Below are positions 3,111-64,000 of a DNA stretch of 64,000 nt, piece after piece. The stretch spans positions 14,848 to 78,847 of the forward strand of contig JABCZM010000002.1 of the NCBI GenBank assembly GCA_013289705.1. The letters run 5' to 3'. Under the pieces are notes generated by a model that was given only the letters and a program-made list of their open reading frames with translations, made no database searches and was not told the origin of the DNA. The stretch's first letter is position 1. Each line of letters starts with the position of its first letter. A program made the position numbers and the translations under genes. This DNA is from Candidatus Saccharimonadota bacterium (GTDB lineage: Bacteria > Patescibacteriota > Saccharimonadia > Saccharimonadales > UBA4665).

Positions 3111-4802
3111 TTATTGATAATTCCAGAGCGCTACGCCGTTGGCGTCTGTAACGTCGACTATTTTTTTGGTTTCACCAGAATTAACAGTTGCACCGTAGTC
3201 AGCAGTCTCGGTAGACGAGTCTACACGATATACAAGCATCGTATTGCTCAACCAACGAATTGGGTAGCTTAGGCCGTCTTGGGTTGCCAAGACTGTTTCT
3301 TTTTGTGATGACTTATCATAAAGCACTAGTGTGTCCTTGCCGGCTCGGCTATCAACGTAGACGCTCTGCTTGCCATCTGGACTATCAATATACAATCGGC
3401 CCATGCCGTTATAGGTATCACTACTGAGTGCTGGTTTGCCGGTACCAAGCTTGCCAAGCTTGTATGTGTAGCGATTGGTAGGGCCAACCAGTAGCAGATC
3501 ACCATAGTCGATACGAAATACACTGAGCACTTCACTAGTCAGTAAAACTTGTCTGCCTGCACCGTCGGGGTTAATTTTTATGAACTGCCCGGTACTGCCG
3601 CCAACGGCATAGTAGATTGCACCGCTTGCACTAAACACGTCGTTAAGATAATTTGCATGATCGAGCACAATGCTTTGCTTGGTTTTGTAGTTGTATGATA
3701 TGAGCCGGTAACGGGACGAATCCGTTGTAGAGGTGCTTGACTTGATGGTAGCGTAGACCAAACGATCCCCAAACCAGTCGATGATTTTAAACTGGCTAGC
3801 GTAATCAACAACAGTTGTCGCACCGGTCTTTACCGTTATAAGTGTGAGCGTTTGCAGCGAAGCACCACTGGAATCTTTCTGGCTATCGCGCACCGAAACA
3901 AGCGCTGCTGCATCACCGGAACCATTTGGCACAAGTGTTAGCTGGTTCGTTTCATAACCCGTGCCGGGCAGTAGTAATTGCGAATTTTGACCATCGGCGT
4001 CGGCTTTGTAGACGTTATAGATGCCCGCTTGCTTGGAAACATACAGCTCTTGGGCACTTACAGCTGGCTGCGTTAGGGCTGGATTTGCCTCGGCTGCAAC
4101 CGTTTTTGTCGGTGGCACCGTCTTATGTGACAAATGATCACGGACAAAATTAACACCTTTTGTACGAAGCGTTGGTTGGACAACCGGTATCGCAAGCAGC
4201 ACGATAATCACCAAACCCATAAAAAGCCGGCGACTTGTAATAAGAGAACGAACTGGCTTGGCGTCCGATGCTTCGGTAATAGCCAGATCTTCGACGCCAG
4301 CAGACTCGTCAGCCACTCCAGCCAAGTTATCACCAGAGAGTGGCAATTTTTTGACTGGTGTAAGCGGCTCGGCACGTTTGAATGGCATAGGGCCATCGGG
4401 TGGACGATATCGTGGTGCTGCTTTGGGTACTTCTGGCGCCGTCTTTCTAACGGGTACTGTTGTGCTTTTTTCGGACGTTGCAACAATCGGCTCTGGATGT
4501 TCGATTGGTGGCGGAGGCGTCGCTTCCGGTTCTGCATCTGCTTGCTGCTCAGTAATCTTGATACTAACTTTTTTGGCATTCTTTTTAGGTAATGGCGGGG
4601 CAGATTTGGGTTTTTCGACTAGCTCTATCGCTTCAGCAACAGGTGCATCTTCGGCCTTTGGTTTGACAACAACTTGCTGCGACTCATCCGGCTGATTCAC
4701 ATCAAGCATTTTATCGATCCTAACCTCGATTTTATGCTCTTCTTCGGGCGTTAAGGACTCATCGGCAGCATCACCCAACACCGTAATTTTTTTACTCGCC
4801 AT
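3111..4802 (-). CDS. single-pass membrane-anchored surface protein with TolB-like beta-propeller ectodomain
   Basis: 563 aa. K/E/P-rich cytoplasmic N-terminus, TM helix LFMGLVIIVLLAIPVV, then repeated propeller-like blades of the type 'GIYNVYKADADGQNSQLLLPGTG'. Confidence 0.5.
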   Translation of the reverse strand: MASKKITVLGDAADESLTPEEEHKIEVRIDKMLDVNQPDESQQVVVKPKAEDAPVAEAIELVEKPKSAPPLPKKNAKKVSIKITEQQADAEPEATPPPPIEHPEPIVATSEKSTTVPVRKTAPEVPKAAPRYRPPDGPMPFKRAEPLTPVKKLPLSGDNLAGVADESAGVEDLAITEASDAKPVRSLITSRRLFMGLVIIVLLAIPVVQPTLRTKGVNFVRDHLSHKTVPPTKTVAAEANPALTQPAVSAQELYVSKQAGIYNVYKADADGQNSQLLLPGTGYETNQLTLVPNGSGDAAALVSVRDSQKDSSGASLQTLTLITVKTGATTVVDYASQFKIIDWFGDRLVYATIKSSTSTTDSSRYRLISYNYKTKQSIVLDHANYLNDVFSASGAIYYAVGGSTGQFIKINPDGAGRQVLLTSEVLSVFRIDYGDLLLVGPTNRYTYKLGKLGTGKPALSSDTYNGMGRLYIDSPDGKQSVYVDSRAGKDTLVLYDKSSQKETVLATQDGLSYPIRWLSNTMLVYRVDSSTETADYGATVNSGETKKIVDVTDANGVALWNYQ

Positions 4803-58878: not shown

Positions 58879-59289
58879 GTGCTGGACGCACAAAGGGACT
58901 GTATGCAATTTCAGGCTCACGGTGGCATCAATATCTTGGGAGTAGTCGGTACAGTCTATCACTGGGTAGATGTATTGAGTGGGCCCGTGCTGGGATTGGC
59001 GATTGTTATCTGGGCTATCCGAAAATATCTGGCATTTCGCTGGCACCGCACGCAACCAACCATCTTGTTTGAACTGACACCTCCTGCCTCAAGCAAACGG
59101 ACACCGCACGCCACCGAACAGTTCCTTATGAGTCTGCATTCACTGGGCAGGCATCTTACGTTTAGCCAGCGATTGCTCGGCAGAACAGCGGTCTTTTCGT
59201 TGGAACTACCAGCATCGCGTCGCAAGGGTATTCGCTACGCCGTACGAGTTAGGGTTACGAGACGTGTTGAGAACACTATTTTTCGTTGA
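58879..59289 (+). pseudogene. N-terminal fragment of a membrane-anchored ATPase-type gene (resembles the N-terminus of CPR DUF87/T4SS-coupling-like proteins)
   Basis: TM helix LSGPVLGLAIVIWAI, then ILFELTPP...TEQFLMSLHSLG...FSLELPASRRKGIRYAVRV. The ORF ends after about 125 aa, just before a TA cassette promoter. The ATPase body is absent. Confidence 0.35.
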
Positions 59290-59297
59290 ACGTTTTA

Positions 59298-59326
59298 TTG
59301 ACAAACGTATTACGTTTTGCTATTTT
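59298..59326 (+). promoter_or_regulatory. TA module A promoter TTGACA-N17-TATTTT with embedded perfect palindrome AAACGTAtTACGTTT
   Basis: -35 at 59298-59303, palindrome at 59303-59317, -10 at 59321-59326, ATG at 59333 (6 nt after the -10 box, leaderless-type). Confidence 0.5.
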
Positions 59327-59332
59327 AAGGAC

Positions 59333-59578
59333 ATGAGTAATGTTATTTCTAGCAAATACCAGGTTGTCATACCTAAGGCCATACGAAAACAGTTGGGCAT
59401 CAAACCTGGTCAAAGAGTACGTGTCGAAGCGGGTAAAAATGGTGATATCGTTCTAAAACAAGAGCCTGAGCAAAAAAGCTACCGAAGCCTCATTGGTACG
59501 CTTGAAGCCCAGGCCGAAGACCCTGTCGTGCGGATCCGGCGTCTGCGCGACAACTGGAGACGCGGTGATATACATTGA
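59333..59578 (+). CDS. vapB: AbrB/SpoVT-type antitoxin, paralog A
   Basis: MSNVISSKYQVVIPKAIRKQLGIKPGQRVRV. 81 aa. Overlaps the PIN gene. Confidence 0.75.
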   Translation: MSNVISSKYQVVIPKAIRKQLGIKPGQRVRVEAGKNGDIVLKQEPEQKSYRSLIGTLEAQAEDPVVRIRRLRDNWRRGDIH

Positions 59579-59957
59579 TGCCAACATCCTCATATACTTG
59601 CTGGAAGATCATGGCGAAAAAAGCTTGTTTGTAGCCGATACGTTAGATGAGTTCCGAGCAAAACAACAGCCGTTTCTTACCTCGGTAATAACCATCACCG
59701 AGTTTTTGGCCGGTACCCGCACACTGAACAGAGACACGCTCGGTACTATTTCTGGTCTTGGGTTTCAAATTGTCGACGAAACAATTGCCGAAAGCGCAGC
59801 CAGACTCCAAAGAGATAAAAACCTTAAAATCGGCGACGCAGTACACCTAGCAACCGCCATCCAGAACAATGCAGCTGTTTTCTTTACGAATGATAGGCAG
59901 CTTGCAAAGGCAGCTTCGCAGTATTTAGAAGTTAAAACACTGTCGATGGTCGTATGA
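59565..59957 (+). CDS. vapC: PIN-domain toxin, paralog A
   Basis: GTG start giving (M)IYIDANILIYLLED..., ITEFL and GDAVHLATAIQNNAAVFFTNDRQL. The stop overlaps the next ATG (ATGA). Confidence 0.75.
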   Translation: MIYIDANILIYLLEDHGEKSLFVADTLDEFRAKQQPFLTSVITITEFLAGTRTLNRDTLGTISGLGFQIVDETIAESAARLQRDKNLKIGDAVHLATAIQNNAAVFFTNDRQLAKAASQYLEVKTLSMVV

Positions 59958-61051
59958 GCAAGATCGTCATCTGTTCACGCGAATGGAGCGGCAGCACCGG
60001 CCGGTATGCACGAGCCCTGGTCGAGCATTTGCAGGATATCGACACAAAAAATCAGTACATCATACTGCTCAAACCAGAAGACGCTGCCAGCTGGCAGCCA
60101 AAAAACCCGCGATTCTCGGTGCTAGCCTGCCCTCACAAAGAATTTAGCTTCGATGAACAATTTGGGCTCAAAAAACAACTTGAGATTTTACGGCCGGACC
60201 TCGTGCATTTCACGATGGTGCAGCAGCCCGCTTGGTACGGTGGCAAAGTTGTGACCACCATGCAAGACCTCACAACCATCCGTTTTCGCAATCTTTCTAA
60301 AAACCCAATTGTATTCGCTATCAAACAACAGGTCTATCGATGGCTCAATAAAAAGGTGGCAAAAAAATCAGTTGCCATTATTACACCTTCGCAATTCGTC
60401 CGTCTCGACGTGGCAAGCTTTACGCGCATCAATCCCGACAAGATAACCGTTACCCACGAAGGTGCCGATAGAATTACCAACAACCCGGAACCTGTGAAAG
60501 GCCTAGAAAAAGCACAATTCATCATGTATCTTGGCCGACCCATGACTCACAAAAACTTACCACGACTAATTGAAGCATTCAAAAAATTACAGATAGACCG
60601 GCCCGAACTTCGACTCGTGCTTGCAGGCAAAAAAGATGATAATTACCAGAAAATTGAGCGGGTTGTAGCAGCCCAGGGCACTAAAAATGTAGCCTTCACC
60701 GACTACGTAAGCGAAGGCCAGCTTCGTTGGCTCTACGAACACTGTGCAGCCTACGTCTTTCCTTCGCTGAGCGAAGGTTTCGGCCTACCAGGTCTAGAAG
60801 CTATGGCGCATGGCGCCCCAGTGATTAGCAGTAACGCTACTTGTTTACCTGAAATATACGGTGATGCAGTGTACTACTTTGACCCCGTAAACATCGACGA
60901 CATGGCAAAAAAAATCGGTGAGGTGCTTGATAGTGAACGCTTGCGTCAAGAACTGATTGCCGCCGGAAACCTGCAAGTCGATAAGTACTCGTGGCGGCGC
61001 ATGGCCAAGCAAACATTGGCCGTCTACGAACAAGCACTCAAACACACATAA
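59954..61051 (+). CDS. glycosyltransferase family 4 (GT-B)
   Basis: 365 aa. C-terminal YVFPSLSEGFGLPGLEAMAHGAPVISS (E-x7-E). Confidence 0.85.
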   Translation: MSKIVICSREWSGSTGRYARALVEHLQDIDTKNQYIILLKPEDAASWQPKNPRFSVLACPHKEFSFDEQFGLKKQLEILRPDLVHFTMVQQPAWYGGKVVTTMQDLTTIRFRNLSKNPIVFAIKQQVYRWLNKKVAKKSVAIITPSQFVRLDVASFTRINPDKITVTHEGADRITNNPEPVKGLEKAQFIMYLGRPMTHKNLPRLIEAFKKLQIDRPELRLVLAGKKDDNYQKIERVVAAQGTKNVAFTDYVSEGQLRWLYEHCAAYVFPSLSEGFGLPGLEAMAHGAPVISSNATCLPEIYGDAVYYFDPVNIDDMAKKIGEVLDSERLRQELIAAGNLQVDKYSWRRMAKQTLAVYEQALKHT

Positions 61052-62175
61052 TGAGCACTCCAGGTAACGGCAAACAACTACTCAATAGCCTGACATCGCT
61101 CCGGTTTTTTGCCGCCCTACTGGTGTTTCTGTGGCACACGCATTTGTGGGGCAACCATCTCGACAGATACCAGCTTGGCTACGCGGGCGTGTCATTCTTT
61201 TATATGCTGTCTGGTTTCGTGCTGACCTACGCCTATTACAAACGAATTACCATAGGCAAATTTACAGCCATTAAGTCCTACTATATTGCTCGGATTGCCA
61301 AGATTTATCCCGTTCATCTACTGACTTTTGCACTAGCAATACCGCTAGCTTTCTACGTCGTGCATGCCAGTGGCGTTGCAGAATTTCTAAAGCAAGCCGT
61401 TGCCAATGTTTTCCTCGTCCAAAGCTTTTCGCCACATATTCCCTACTATTTTGCCTTCAATGCCGTTTCGTGGAGCATTTCGGATGAGCTGTTTTTCTAT
61501 TTACTTATGCCCGTGTTTATATTCATCGCGTTCCGCCTGCGCAACAAGCTGTCTATTGGAAAACTTGTACTGAGCATGCTTGTTATCTGGATTGCAATGG
61601 TCGCCCTACTAACAGGAAAAGTTGCCGTGCTTGATCAGTGGGCCTATTATGTCTTGCCGTTGATTCGCTTGCCCGACTTTGTCCTAGGCATCTTGCTGTG
61701 TCTTGTATACTGGAAAAGCCAATCGACGAAACTCAATTCTATAAGGACTACGTGATTTAGTCTCGCCGAGATCAGCGCACTCACATTGTTGGTAACGGGG
61801 TTCATCGGCGACGCTCACTTGCCTCAGGCACTGCACTTTGACGTCGGCTTTTTGCCGTTTTGGACCATACTTATCTTCGTATTTGCACATGAGCGTGGCA
61901 TTATCTCGAAGCTATTAGGCCGCCGGCCGTTCGTGTTTCTGGGTGAAATTAGCTTTTCGTTCTACATGCTACACCAGCTTGTTATTCGGTACATCTGGCA
62001 CTACGGGATCAAGCCAGTTGCACCAATCGCGTTCACCATAACACTTGTGGGCAGCGCAGCGCTATTCCTTTTGTACGAGGAAAACATGCGCAAACTAGTC
62101 CGCAACAAGCTCGAAGCTAAGCTCGTTTGGCCAAGAAAAAACAAAGACACAGTGCTAGCAGAAGAGGCATTTTAG
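61051..62175 (+). pseudogene. acyltransferase family 3 (OafA/YrhL-like O-acyltransferase) interrupted by one in-frame TGA
   Basis: LTSLRFFAALLVFLWH start motif and about 10 TM helices. ORFs 61051-61755 and 61786-62175 are in the same frame, separated only by TGA at 61753-61755 (…IRTT*FSLAEISALTLLV…). Combined length of 374 codons fits the family. Confidence 0.7.
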
Positions 62176-62178
62176 AAT
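62161..62178 (+). repeat. direct repeat copy 1 (acyltransferase last codons + stop: GAAGAGGCATTTTAGAAT)
   Basis: Matches 62928-62945 at 17 of 18 positions. Weaker similarity continues for about 14 more nt. Confidence 0.6.
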
Positions 62179-62227
62179 TACGAACCAATTCGTTTTACTC
62201 TCACTAAATTGCCTGTTGTTTTACGAA

Positions 62228-62256
62228 TTGACAAAGGTTTTACGTTTTGATATAGT
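62228..62256 (+). promoter_or_regulatory. TA module B promoter TTGACA-N17-TATAGT with TTTTACG repeats
   Basis: -35 at 62228-62233 and -10 at 62251-62256. TTTTACG at 62219 and 62238. ATG at 62264. Confidence 0.5.
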
Positions 62257-62263
62257 TGAACTT

Positions 62264-62506
62264 ATGAAAAACAACTCCTTGGCACTGTCCAGTAAGTACC
62301 AAATCGTCATCCCGAAAGCTGCTCGACAGAAAATGGGTCTTGATAAAGCTATCGGCCAGCGCCTGCGTGTGAAGAGTGTCACTGAAAACGAGATTGTTTT
62401 TAGCAAAGAACCTTCTATTGACGACTTCTTGGGCGCGTTTGGTGACACCTTCCCTAAAAATACCGCCGCTAAGATCCGTAAAATGCGTGATGAGGAATGG
62501 GACTAA
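62264..62506 (+). CDS. vapB: AbrB/SpoVT-type antitoxin, paralog B
   Basis: MKNNSLALSSKYQIVIPKAARQKMGL...IRKMRDEEWD. Confidence 0.75.
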   Translation: MKNNSLALSSKYQIVIPKAARQKMGLDKAIGQRLRVKSVTENEIVFSKEPSIDDFLGAFGDTFPKNTAAKIRKMRDEEWD

Positions 62507-62509
62507 ACA

Positions 62510-62929
62510 ATGCTCATCGCACTGGACAGCAACATACTCATCGCCGCCCTGTCGCCACACGAAGAGCACTCCATATGGGCACAGCAACTTATAAAAGATA
62601 TTGCCAGCAACCGCTATCAAGCCGTGGTTTCGTCGATAGCTTACGGGGAAATCTTGAGTTTCAGCACACAACAAGTAGCAAGAGCCCTCGATCTAGGCTC
62701 GTTTCTTAGACAGATTAAAAATTGCGCGACTATAGCGGCAGATGACACGATCTGCTTGGCGGCTGGCGAGCTAAGAAGGACGTACGGCGGCAAGCTCAAG
62801 CTGCCCGATGCACTGCATCTTACCACAGCCCTCAACCAAAAGGCAGATTTATTCATCACGAACGATTTTAAGTTAGCGAAAGTTGCAGAGAGTATCGTAG
62901 CAACCAAGACTTTGGGTGAGTGGGTATGA
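62510..62929 (+). CDS. vapC: PIN-domain toxin, paralog B
   Basis: MLIALDSNILIAAL, YGEIL and PDALHLTTALNQKADLFITNDFKL. Confidence 0.8.
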   Translation: MLIALDSNILIAALSPHEEHSIWAQQLIKDIASNRYQAVVSSIAYGEILSFSTQQVARALDLGSFLRQIKNCATIAADDTICLAAGELRRTYGGKLKLPDALHLTTALNQKADLFITNDFKLAKVAESIVATKTLGEWV

Positions 62930-62945
62930 AGAGGCATCTTAGAAT
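62928..62945 (+). repeat. direct repeat copy 2 (GAAGAGGCATCTTAGAAT)
   Basis: Overlaps the vapC-B stop codon. Would read EEAS* versus EEAF* in copy 1. Confidence 0.6.
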
Positions 62946-63083
62946 CGCCAGCCGATTCGCCGGTGAGGCCATATAAGCACTCAACAACAATCGTTTGCGC
63001 CAAGAACTGACTACGGAGCCGGAAATGTTAGCTGCGCATAAACAGATAGTAGAATAGTAAGAAGTATTCTTTTTAACCTACCA

Positions 63084-63113
63084 TTAACAAACGTCTTACT
63101 TTTTTGCTAACAT
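63084..63113 (+). promoter_or_regulatory. TA module C promoter TTAACA-N18-TAACAT (degenerate version of the A/B promoter)
   Basis: ATTAACAAACGTCTTACTTTTTTGCTAACAT aligns with ATTGACAAACGTATTACGTTTTGCTATTTT of module A. ATG at 63121. Confidence 0.4.
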
Positions 63114-63120
63114 TTTACAC

Positions 63121-63366
63121 ATGGACATAACTGTTTCAACAAAGTACCAGATAGTAATACCGAAAGCTGTGAGAAAGCAGCTTGGCATCAAACCTGGTCA
63201 AAAACTCCGTATCGATAGCGTCGTTGGTAAACAAGTCACCCTATCAGCACCTCTGACAACAGAAGAATATCTAGATAAATATGCCGACTCACTCAAGGGC
63301 ACCGTCTGGCAAAAGTCAGGAATGGATGCAACCGAATGGATCCGCAAAATGCGTGACGAGGACTAG
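63121..63366 (+). CDS. vapB: AbrB/SpoVT-type antitoxin, paralog C
   Basis: MDITVSTKYQIVIPKAVRKQLGIKPGQKLRI...IRKMRDED. Shares a 19-nt identical run (63184-63202) with paralog A (59396-59414). Confidence 0.75.
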   Translation: MDITVSTKYQIVIPKAVRKQLGIKPGQKLRIDSVVGKQVTLSAPLTTEEYLDKYADSLKGTVWQKSGMDATEWIRKMRDED

Positions 63367-63375
63367 AGCTAAATC

Positions 63376-63566
63376 GTGATCGGACTTGATAGCAAACTAC
63401 TTTTACCCGCTGACAACGCTATTGCCCACCGTGCTGGCGTGCTTCGATTCAAACACGGTATTAAAACACCGACGCTATTCGCTTAGCTACAGCAGAACTT
63501 GCTGGGGCAGTCACATTTATTACAAAGACCTTAGGCTGGTTAGGCTCAAACTTGCTTCTGGCCTAA
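63376..63566 (+). pseudogene. decayed PIN toxin, paralog C (internal deletion plus frameshift)
   Basis: GTG-VIGLDSKLLLP... (PIN N-terminus) runs into TAG at 63484. The PIN C-terminus DAIRLATAELAGAVTFITK is readable in another frame (63471-63566). Total length is about 190 nt versus about 400 nt for intact paralogs. Confidence 0.65.
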
Positions 63567-63596
63567 AAATACTACCCTTGGTGGGTTAACCTCAGC

Positions 63597-64000
63597 CTAT
63601 TCGGCGAGCTTCAATACAATATGTCGGTCGCGGCCATCGCCGGCCGATTCACTCGTCAGGCCATATTCGGCGGCAAGCTGGTGCACAATGCGGCGATCAG
63701 CAGCGTTCATTGGTCGAAGTTCCATTGGTTCGCCACTGTCTTTGACATGCTTAACCCAATCTTCGGCGGTATGGCTAAGACGCTCGGCGCGCTGCTTTTT
63801 GTAGTCGGCAACATCGACGTTCACGCGGGTATACTGGTAATTGCTATTTTTGAGGGCAGTACTTACCAAATACTGCAGGGAGTGCATGGTTTCGGCGTGC
63901 TGACCAATCAAAAATCCGTTTAAATGTGTCGAAGGAACACTAAGCTGAATAACTTCTTCGTCACTGCTGGCGTGAATGTCGATGTTGGCCCCAAAAAACG
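63597..64000 (-). CDS. jag: Jag/KhpB-type RNA-binding protein (KH + R3H), 5' end beyond the window
   Basis: C-terminal R3H motif MNAADRRIVHQLAAEYGLTSESAGDGRDRHIVL. The KH-like LIGQHAETMHSLQYLV lies upstream. The frame stays open to position 64000. Confidence 0.75.
   Translation of the reverse strand, partial: FFGANIDIHASSDEEVIQLSVPSTHLNGFLIGQHAETMHSLQYLVSTALKNSNYQYTRVNVDVADYKKQRAERLSHTAEDWVKHVKDSGEPMELRPMNAADRRIVHQLAAEYGLTSESAGDGRDRHIVLKLAE

What the first reader, a model, noticed from the sequence alone, without database searches (positions are those of the whole stretch)
59290..63566. Three paralogous, apparently leaderless AbrB-PIN modules with a shared promoter/operator, one caught in toxin decay
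Modules A (59333-59957), B (62264-62929) and C (63121-63566) encode antitoxins that share S-x-KYQ[IV]VIPKAxRKQ[LM]G...IR[KR][LM]RD. A and C also share a 19-nt identical run.

Their upstream regions align:
- A: ATTGACAAACGTATTACGTTTTGCTATTTT
- B: ATTGACAAAGGTTTTACGTTTTGATATAGT
- C: ATTAACAAACGTCTTACTTTTTTGCTAACAT

The -10 box ends 6-7 nt before each ATG and there is no Shine-Dalgarno sequence, so the mRNAs would be leaderless. Module A has a perfect AAACGTAtTACGTTT palindrome between -35 and -10, a textbook autoregulation operator.

Module C keeps an intact antitoxin, but its PIN gene is reduced to ~190 nt with an internal deletion and a frameshift. The family therefore shows both amplification and decay within 4.3 kb, interleaved with glycosyltransferase and acyltransferase genes. 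It could stabilise, or mark the recombination boundaries of, a variable glycan region.
Basis: partly seen in the sequence, partly recalled or inferred. Interest (0 to 1): 0.6.

Follow-up and report, generated by a model that had tools for sequence, protein, structure and literature searches.

The report
Three leaderless VapBC toxin-antitoxin cassettes
Three ordinary toxin-antitoxin gene pairs, one with a wrecked toxin, were inserted separately into a sugar-coat gene cluster of a tiny Saccharibacteria genome; they share a self-repressing promoter that probably makes mRNA starting right at the start codon.

Summary
A (59333-59957) and B (62264-62929) are intact AbrB/MazE-fold antitoxin + PIN toxin pairs, i.e. 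VapBC type II toxin-antitoxin modules. C has an intact antitoxin (63121-63366). Its PIN remnant runs to 63589, not 63566, and has lost about 60-65 codons and carries two -1 frameshifts.

Each module has a TTGACA-17/18-TGnTAnnnT promoter ending 6-7 nt before the ATG, with no Shine-Dalgarno sequence. The conserved spacer holds a palindrome, CGT-N3-ACG. Homologous cassettes in other Saccharibacteria keep this box twice, about 21 bp apart, about 80-fold above chance, so it is very probably the VapB operator.

The leaderless geometry is genome-wide: distance 6 from the -10 box to the ATG is a sharp peak, and antitoxins and small repressors dominate that class. The same pattern recurs in 40 relatives. 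Homologues in other phyla mostly carry GGAGG leaders.

"Amplification" is not supported. A, B and C each have closer relatives in other genomes. Relatives show GT2-GT4-jag directly adjacent, so these are separate insertions.

Leaderless toxin-antitoxin operons are already established in M. tuberculosis. Verdict: new members of a known kind, modest interest.

The parts
59284..59292 (+). Module A distal operator box CGTTGAACG (CGT-N3-ACG), just upstream of the -35
   Evidence: Strict box at -49 from the ATG. The same position is occupied in L001, L003, L004, L006, L007, L008 and L015.
59298..59326 (+). Module A promoter: TTGACA (59298-59303), 17-nt spacer, TGc-TATTTT (-10 at 59321-59326). The spacer holds the palindrome AAACGTATTACGTTT (59303-59317), whose core CGTATTACG (59306-59314) is the proximal operator box.
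   Evidence: 10/12 consensus match, TG present
59333..59578 (+). vapB-A, AbrB/MazE-fold antitoxin, 81 aa. The ATG lies 6 nt after the -10 box and there is no SD.
   Evidence: Pfam PF04014 E = 9.5e-14; TIGR01439 E = 4.3e-13
59565..59957 (+). vapC-A, PIN toxin, 130 aa. GTG start with GGAG 5 nt upstream; 14-nt overlap with vapB-A. Its TGA stop overlaps the ATG of the GT4 gene (ATGA).
   Evidence: Pfam PF01850 E = 1.5e-16; the D-E-D-D acidic residues are kept; sequence
62217..62225 (+). Module B distal box TGTTTTACG (one mismatch to CGT-N3-ACG)
   Evidence: direct repeat of TTTTACG 19 nt upstream of the proximal copy (box starts 62217 and 62236)
62228..62256 (+). Module B promoter: TTGACA, 17-nt spacer, TGa-TATAGT. 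Proximal box GGTTTTACG at 62236-62244.
   Evidence: 11/12 match, best in the region, TG present
62264..62506 (+). vapB-B antitoxin, 80 aa. The ATG lies 7 nt after the -10 box.
   Evidence: Pfam PF04014 E = 7.6e-5; aligned to A and C
62510..62929 (+). vapC-B, PIN toxin, 139 aa. A GAGGA lies in the antitoxin's last codons.
   Evidence: Pfam PF01850 E = 2.4e-16; D-E-D-D kept
63084..63113 (+). Module C promoter, weakened: TTAACA, 18-nt spacer, TGc-TAACAT. The proximal box is degenerate (CGTCTTACT, 63092-63100) and no distal box is recognisable.
   Evidence: 9/12 match
63121..63366 (+). vapB-C, intact orphan antitoxin, 81 aa. The ATG lies 7 nt after the -10 box.
   Evidence: Pfam PF04014 E = 2.1e-10. 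Closest relatives are L004 (65%) and L015 (64%).
63376..63589 (+). vapC-C pseudogene. Segment 63376-63471 reads MIGLDSKLLL then PADNAIAHRAGVLRFKHGIKTP, with about 60-65 codons, including the catalytic Glu region, missing between the two. A -1 shift follows, then 63471-63527 (DAIRLATAELAGAVTFITK). A second -1 shift follows, then 63527-63589 (DLRLVRLKLASGLKILPLVG, stop).
   Evidence: Collinear tblastn matches of 13 PIN proteins in three frames; alignment

Best explanation
These are three separately inserted members of one VapBC type II toxin-antitoxin family (AbrB/MazE-fold VapB antitoxin plus PIN-domain VapC RNase) in a 1.24-Mb Saccharimonadales (Saccharibacteria/TM7) genome.

Proposed mechanism:
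- Each cassette carries its own sigma-70-type promoter: -35, a 17-18 nt spacer, and an extended -10.
- Inferred: transcription starts at or within about 1 nt of the antitoxin AUG, so VapB is translated from a leaderless mRNA. VapC is translated from a Shine-Dalgarno sequence (GGAG/GAGGA) embedded in the antitoxin's last codons.
- Inferred: VapB, alone or as the VapBC complex, represses the promoter by binding CGT-N3-ACG palindromes. One lies in the -35/-10 spacer and one just upstream of the -35, about two helical turns apart.

Modules A and B look functional. In C the toxin is dead (internal deletion plus two frameshifts). Its promoter and operator are weakened, but the antitoxin reading frame is intact, so C is an orphan antitoxin/repressor that may still act on the near-identical boxes of A and B.

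Shown here: domain identities, catalytic residues, promoter geometry, conservation of the box, the genome-wide leaderless class, the insertion relative to relatives, and the toxin decay. Inferred: transcription start site, DNA binding, toxicity and neutralisation.
For: Identity:
- Pfam/NCBIfam hits.
- The PIN acidic tetrad D-E-D-D is kept in A and B.

Operator:
- The box is unique to the three promoters in the window and genome.
- Sixteen Saccharibacteria promoters of this family hold 17 strict CGT-N3-ACG boxes, at -27/-28 and at -45 to -50 from the ATG. Expectation is 0.013 per 80 nt.
- Several promoters have the same TTGACAAACGTTTTACGTTTTG although their antitoxins are only 40-50% identical.
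- 14 of 61 homologous loci in other phyla also carry a strict box at -40 to -31.
- The promoter core is at least as conserved as the DNA-binding domain coding sequence: A/B 25 of 30 nt, against about 55% baseline.

Leaderless design:
- All 12 AbrB antitoxin genes of this genome have a -10 box ending about 6-9 nt (mostly 6-7) before the ATG.
- Genome-wide, the distance from strong promoters to the ATG of an ORF of 50 codons or more peaks sharply at 6 (26 cases, against a background of about 2.5).
- The 46 candidates are dominated by AbrB, Phd/YefM and RHH antitoxins and small repressors.
- The pattern TTGACA-N17-TANNNT-N6-ATG gives about 100 hits in 40 relatives against 3 in the reversed control.
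- In 14 of the 15 Saccharibacteria family loci outside this window a -10 box ends 6-8 nt before an ATG start; the exception, L043, has a GTG start behind an SD.
- An SD is present in 36 of 61 homologous loci of other phyla but in 1 of 14 Saccharibacteria loci.
- Precedent: 32 of 37 M. tuberculosis toxin-antitoxin pairs with a mapped start site are leaderless (PMC3898074).

Insertion:
- 13 relatives have GT4 and jag directly adjacent (and GT2 next to GT4 where seen), with no toxin-antitoxin module or acyltransferase.

Decay.
Against: - No transcript 5' ends, binding data or toxicity data exist for these loci.
- All three modules point the same way as the flanking glycan genes, and no terminator-like site separates them on the + strand. 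Read-through transcripts, on which the antitoxin AUG would be internal and SD-less, probably also exist.
- Part of the conserved box (TTGACA, the TG of the extended -10) is core promoter and not operator.
- B and C carry only near-matches to the strict palindrome.
- About 40% of long ORFs in this genome have SD-like sequences near a candidate start, so SD-led initiation is clearly in use too.
Confidence: 0.75

Rival explanations
1. The modules are not leaderless. They are mainly expressed on longer read-through transcripts from the upstream glycan genes (GT2 to orf58879 to A to GT4 to acyltransferase to B to C), or from start sites a few nucleotides further upstream. The antitoxin would then be translated by an SD-independent but leadered mechanism.
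For: - All genes are co-oriented and no + strand terminator-like site lies between them.
- The vapC-A stop overlaps the GT4 start (ATGA), implying co-transcription across the module boundary.
- No start-site data are available.
Against: - The top two sigma-70 matches in the region sit exactly 6-7 nt before the antitoxin ATGs.
- The sharp genome-wide peak at distance 6 and the clade-wide enrichment are hard to explain unless initiation occurs there.
- The Saccharibacteria homologues with this geometry start with ATG, whereas toxin genes often use GTG or TTG.
Confidence: 0.15
2. The conserved upstream block is only a strong core promoter (-35, A/T-rich spacer, extended -10) inherited with the cassette. 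It is not an antitoxin operator, and regulation, if any, lies elsewhere.
For: TTGACA and TGnTAnnnT account for about half of the conserved positions. No binding data exist.
Against: - A second CGT-N3-ACG copy sits outside the core promoter, upstream of the -35, in most family members.
- The same palindrome appears in homologous loci of other phyla in a different promoter register.
- Its frequency is about 80 times background.
- The AbrB N-terminal DNA-binding segment is the most conserved part of the protein.
Confidence: 0.1
3. The three modules arose by local tandem amplification of one ancestral cassette within this locus and then diverged and decayed.
For: They are clustered within 4.3 kb, in the same orientation, with the same promoter type. 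A and C share a 19-nt identical run.
Against: - Antitoxin identities among A, B and C are 36-41%, lower than to proteins of other genomes (46-65%).
- C groups with L013/L015 (support 96/95) apart from the A/B clade (96/94).
- B and C are each bracketed by their own, different, repeats.
- A is separated from B by two unrelated genes.
Confidence: 0.07

Closest known systems
VapBC type II toxin-antitoxin systems with an AbrB/SpoVT-fold VapB (e.g. Shigella/Salmonella VapBC, non-typeable Haemophilus VapBC-1, Rickettsia felis VapBC2 bound to its promoter DNA; named from my own knowledge)
   Same: A small AbrB-fold antitoxin gene lies upstream of, and overlaps or abuts, a PIN toxin gene with four conserved acidic residues. 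A palindromic operator sits inside the operon's own promoter. The C-terminal antitoxin tail is conserved ([IL]RKMRDE[ED]W).
   Different: - No close solved relative: best PDB hits are E = 5e-4 for the antitoxin and E = 0.018 for the PIN.
- The design is predicted to be leaderless.
- The CGT-N3-ACG operator is doubled.
- The host is a CPR bacterium.
- No functional data exist.
Leaderless toxin-antitoxin operons of Mycobacterium tuberculosis (Cortes et al. 2013, PMC3898074)
   Same: Toxin-antitoxin operons are strongly over-represented among leaderless transcripts. The -10 box sits immediately upstream of the start codon and there is no SD.
   Different: - In M. tuberculosis this is shown by start-site mapping (32 of 37 pairs). 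Here it is inferred from sequence geometry only.
- The phylum is different (Saccharibacteria).
- Here a full TTGACA -35 and an extended -10 are present.
E. coli MazE and the mazEF promoter 'alternating palindrome', and the AbrB N-domain swapped-hairpin DNA binders (PMC4803016, section on autoregulation)
   Same: The same DNA-binding fold family (Pfam PF04014, TIGR01439). Autorepression works through palindromes that overlap the promoter.
   Different: The toxin partner is PIN, not MazF. The operator sequence and the two-box spacing differ.
Orphan antitoxins / anti-addiction modules and decaying chromosomal toxin-antitoxin loci (general concept, from my own knowledge)
   Same: Module C keeps an intact antitoxin next to an inactivated toxin.
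   Different: Whether VapB-C still neutralises VapC-A or VapC-B, or represses their promoters, is unknown. Its own promoter and operator are already degraded.

Membership tests
VapBC (type II TA, PIN toxin) | Toxin is a PIN domain with the conserved acidic tetrad (D, E, D, D) | tested here: met
   A and B: Pfam PF01850 E = 1.5e-16 and 2.4e-16. D/E/D/D are present in the alignment with 11 homologues. C: not met, as it is a pseudogene lacking the Glu region.
VapBC (type II TA, PIN toxin) | Small antitoxin gene with an N-terminal DNA-binding domain immediately upstream, in one operon | tested here: met
   AbrB/MazE domain in all three antitoxins. Gene spacing: a 14-nt overlap in A, a 3-nt gap in B, a 9-nt gap in C.
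VapBC (type II TA, PIN toxin) | Toxin arrests growth (RNA cleavage) and the cognate antitoxin neutralises it | not testable with these tools
   Needs expression assays in a laboratory strain.
VapBC (type II TA, PIN toxin) | Autorepression by antitoxin or complex binding to an operator in the promoter | tested here: inconclusive
   Conserved CGT-N3-ACG boxes lie at fixed promoter positions, about 80 times background. There is no binding assay.
Leaderless bacterial mRNAs | The -10 hexamer ends about 6-8 nt before the start codon, so the start site coincides with the A of AUG | tested here: met
   6, 7 and 7 nt for A, B and C. Genome-wide peak at 6.
Leaderless bacterial mRNAs | No Shine-Dalgarno sequence; AUG start codon | tested here: met
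   There is no room for an SD in the 6-7 nt. All three start with ATG. An SD is found in 1 of 14 Saccharibacteria family loci against 36 of 61 in other phyla.
Leaderless bacterial mRNAs | Mapped 5' triphosphate end at the start codon | not testable with these tools
No start-site data for this organism were found in the literature.

The most novel reading that the evidence does not exclude
CPR/Saccharibacteria may carry a portable, self-contained 'leaderless promoter + CGT-N3-ACG operator + VapBC' cassette family.

Its members repeatedly land at the same gene junctions. The GT2|GT4 slot is occupied here and in another genus, and the 3' ends of the acyltransferase and jag genes are duplicated around B and C.

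Because the paralogues keep near-identical operators and C-terminal tails, they could form a cross-regulating network. In that network an orphan antitoxin such as VapB-C would act as a trans-repressor or anti-addiction factor for its neighbours.

More broadly, leaderless initiation would be the default expression mode of antitoxins and small autorepressors across Saccharimonadales. I found no paper describing that.
Probability: 0.2. Interest if true: 0.55.

Novelty: new member of a known kind. Interest (0 to 1): 0.3.

Why it matters
The locus gives a clean, testable example of how toxin-antitoxin cassettes are organised in ultra-small CPR bacteria.

- The promoter, operator and start codon are compacted into about 50 bp.
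- The antitoxin appears to be translated without a leader, while the toxin uses an SD inside the antitoxin gene. That arrangement could set the antitoxin:toxin ratio according to ribosome state.
- The same protein family in other phyla uses classical SD leaders. The comparison therefore shows a lineage-specific switch in how translation starts for one mobile gene family.
- It also documents that these cassettes insert at precise gene junctions of a conserved cell-surface glycan locus and then decay.

None of this changes current concepts. Leaderless toxin-antitoxin operons, AbrB-type VapB operators and orphan antitoxins are all established.

Tried and rejected
NG86 dS could not be computed for 7 of 9 pairs and exceeded 1.6 in the other two, so the result is uninformative.
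- Literature on leaderless transcription in Saccharibacteria/CPR: searches found nothing specific. A cited TM7x start-site dataset (PubMed 35975994) is not held.
- Solved-structure relatives: only weak hits. No structure prediction was run, because the Pfam and catalytic-residue evidence was sufficient.
- Exact 22-nt box across 300 genomes of the order: only 3 other genomes matched, and one of those was a chance hit. The precise box is therefore sporadic, as expected for a mobile cassette, and not a clade-wide regulon site.
- orf58879 (58879-59289): no Pfam or NCBIfam match; identity left open.
- Alternative longer antitoxin ORFs starting at upstream GTG/TTG: rejected, because all homologues start 4-8 codons before the KYQ motif.

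Full report
**What is there**

The window is contig C2:14848-78847 of a 1.24-Mb, 13-contig, 48% G+C genome that is about 97% complete. The closest relatives of its antitoxins are in Candidatus Saccharimonadales/Saccharibacteria MAGs, so the organism is a Saccharibacterium (TM7, CPR).

Between 59290 and 63600 the + strand carries the following, in order:
- vapB-A (59333-59578)
- vapC-A (GTG 59565-59957)
- a GT4 glycosyltransferase (59954-61051)
- an Acyl_transf_3 gene interrupted by one in-frame TGA (61051-62175)
- vapB-B (62264-62506)
- vapC-B (62510-62929)
- vapB-C (63121-63366)
- a PIN remnant (63376-63589)

The converging jag gene lies on the - strand (63597 onward).

**Check of the observation**

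The three antitoxins hit Pfam MazE_antitoxin and the NCBIfam AbrB domain. PIN A and PIN B hit Pfam PIN at about 1e-16. Both keep the four acidic residues of the PIN active site in an alignment with 11 homologues.

The shared N-terminal motif and the C-terminal IR[KR][LM]RD are invariant among the three. The 19-nt identical A/C run is real. The upstream box occurs only at the three promoters (3 hits against 0.01 expected; no other near-perfect hit in the genome). The A palindrome AAACGTAtTACGTTT is perfect.

The -10 hexamers end 6, 7 and 7 nt before the ATGs. The A and B promoters are the two best sigma-70 matches in 4.9 kb, and all three have the TG of an extended -10.

**The C remnant**

The remnant aligns to PIN proteins collinearly in three frames:
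- residues 1-10 (MIGLDSKLLL)
- a gap of about 60-65 codons that removes the catalytic Glu region
- PADNAIAHRAGVLRFKHGIKTP
- a -1 shift
- DAIRLATAELAGAVTFITK
- a second -1 shift
- DLRLVRLKLASGLKILPLVG, then the stop at 63589

**Operator**

I fetched homologous loci from 80 genomes and read their upstream regions. The Saccharibacteria members have the same layout. Several have the same sequence (L001, L002, L004/G265: TTGACAAACGTTTTACGTTTTG), although the antitoxins are only 40-50% identical to A, B or C.

The recurring element is the 9-bp palindrome CGT-N3-ACG. One copy lies in the -35/-10 spacer, at -27/-28 from the ATG. A second lies just upstream of the -35, at -45 to -50, usually 21-22 bp away.

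Sixteen promoters hold 17 strict copies plus several one-mismatch copies. Background frequency is 0.16 per kb, or 0.013 per 80 nt. Fourteen of 61 homologous loci from other phyla also have a strict copy, clustered at -40 to -31. Examples are CGTATTACG in Chloroflexota and Gammaproteobacteria loci.

In nucleotide terms the promoter core is at least as conserved among A, B and C as the DNA-binding-domain coding sequence. It is far above the roughly 55% baseline of the flanks, the C-terminal coding sequence and the PIN genes.

I infer that CGT-N3-ACG is the cognate operator of this VapB subfamily and travels with the cassette. Two sites about two helical turns apart fit binding by two AbrB-type dimers held in one VapBC complex. 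This inference rests on what is known for VapBC and FitAB complexes (my own knowledge) and was not tested.

Module B has near-matches only (TGTTTTACG and GGTTTTACG). Module C has a weakened -35 (TTAACA), a degenerate proximal box (CGTCTTACT) and no distal box.

**Leaderless design**

All 12 AbrB/MazE antitoxin genes in this genome have a -35/-10 pair ending about 6-9 nt (mostly 6-7) before an ATG.

Genome-wide, I took strong promoters (at least 5 of 6 matches to TTGACA, a 16-18 nt spacer, TAnnnT). The distance from these to the ATG of an ORF of 50 codons or more shows a sharp peak at 6 nt (26 cases) and a shoulder at 7-9 (8-9 each), over a background of about 2.5.

The 46 genes in the 5-8 nt class are dominated by small DNA-binding proteins:
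- 8 AbrB antitoxins
- Phd/YefM antitoxins
- RHH/FitA-like antitoxins
- Trp-repressor-like, XRE, ArsR and MarR regulators

Roughly 40% of long ORFs have an SD-like sequence near a candidate start. Leaderless genes are therefore a distinct minority class enriched in antitoxins, and not simply how the whole genome works.

The exact pattern TTGACA-N17-TANNNT-N6-ATG gives 12 hits here and about 100 in 40 relatives, against 3 for the reversed control. The class is therefore clade-wide.

Within the VapB family, Saccharibacteria loci have an SD in 1 of 14 cases, whereas other phyla have one in 36 of 61. Fourteen of the 15 Saccharibacteria family loci outside this window place a -10 box 6-8 nt before an ATG start (L043, GTG with an SD, is the exception), while the toxin genes often start with GTG or TTG.

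The toxin genes have SD-like sequences inside the antitoxin's last codons: GGAG 5 nt before the vapC-A GTG, and GAGGA in the conserved ...RDEE... codons of B and C.

This mirrors M. tuberculosis, where 32 of 37 toxin-antitoxin pairs with a mapped primary start site are leaderless (PMC3898074). I could not obtain transcript data.

**Origin of the three modules**

Thirteen relatives from the same genus, family and order have GT4 and the converging jag directly adjacent. Six of them also show GT2 directly upstream of GT4 within the fetched DNA. None has a toxin-antitoxin module, an acyltransferase or orf58879 in between. The modules are therefore insertions: orf58879 + A between GT2 and GT4, and the acyltransferase pseudogene + B + C between GT4 and jag.

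A, B and C are 36-41% identical to each other but 46-65% identical to antitoxins from other genomes. In a maximum-likelihood tree the CPR proteins form one clade (support 95/89). C groups with L013/L015 (96/95), apart from the clade holding A and B (96/94), and A and B are not sisters. This contradicts in-situ amplification.

One other genus (G265) has a family member in exactly the GT2|GT4 slot. Its antitoxin is closer to C (62%) than to A. The GT2 stop codon there lies inside the -35 hexamer, and the toxin's 3' end overlaps the GT4 start.

Here the vapC-A stop overlaps the GT4 ATG. B is bracketed by a 32-nt repeat of the acyltransferase 3' end (62161-62192 and 62928-62959). C is bracketed by a diverged copy of the jag 3' region (62944-62974 and 63636-63666; the relic reads ...YGLTGESAGD on the - strand).

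These scars suggest recombination at gene 3' ends. I found no evidence that they stabilise the glycan region.

**Verdict**

These are ordinary VapBC modules, two intact and one with a decayed toxin, with a well-supported but untested autoregulatory operator and leaderless architecture.

My confidence, by claim:
- VapBC identity: about 0.95
- Operator role of CGT-N3-ACG: about 0.75
- Leaderless transcription: about 0.75-0.8
- Independent insertion, not amplification: about 0.85

Novelty: new members of a known kind. The modestly new points are the CPR-specific leaderless format of a family that uses SD leaders elsewhere, and the family-wide CGT-N3-ACG operator.

Noticed in passing
window 61051-62175 (TGA at 61753-61755): The Acyl_transf_3 gene is split by a single in-frame TGA. 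Both halves hit PF01757 (profile positions 3-211 and 221-320). TGA is a genuine stop elsewhere in the locus, so this is a nonsense pseudogene or a sequencing error.
   Followed up: partly
window 62161-62192 / 62928-62959 and 62944-62974 / 63636-63666: Module B is bracketed by an 81%-identical 32-nt repeat of the acyltransferase 3' end. Module C is bracketed by an 84%-identical 31-nt repeat of the jag 3' region. The left copy extends into a relic of about 20 codons (- strand: AQTIVVECLYGLTGESAGD against jag RRIVHQLAAEYGLTSESAGD). These look like insertion or recombination scars at gene 3' ends.
   Followed up: partly
L100 (G265:C3:29000-36000) 3260-4013: Another genus carries a VapBC module of the same family in the same GT2|GT4 slot. 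The GT2 stop codon is the TGA inside the -35 TTGACA, and the distal operator box encodes the last GT2 residues. The toxin's 3' end overlaps the GTG start of GT4. This suggests a recurrent insertion hotspot or an old shared insertion.
   Followed up: partly
window 59954-59957: The vapC-A stop (TGA) overlaps the ATG of the conserved GT4 gene (ATGA). The backbone glycosyltransferase is therefore now positioned as if translationally coupled to the toxin gene.
   Followed up: no
whole genome G000: This 1.24-Mb genome has 18 PIN-domain hits and 12 AbrB/MazE hits, which is a high toxin-antitoxin load for its size. It also has the highest count (12) of the strict leaderless promoter pattern among the 41 genomes compared.
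   Followed up: partly
window 58879-59289: A 136-aa ORF with a predicted membrane segment has no Pfam or NCBIfam match and is absent from the syntenic site in relatives. It ends 43 nt before the vapB-A start codon. It may be a fragment brought in with, or truncated by, the insertion.
   Followed up: partly
L031, L042, L052 (Microgenomates homologues): In Curtissbacteria, Woesebacteria and Daviesbacteria homologues the second operator box (GTAATACGA / CGTATAACT) lies between the -10 and the ATG instead of upstream of the -35. The -10-to-ATG distance there is 9-10 nt.
   Followed up: no
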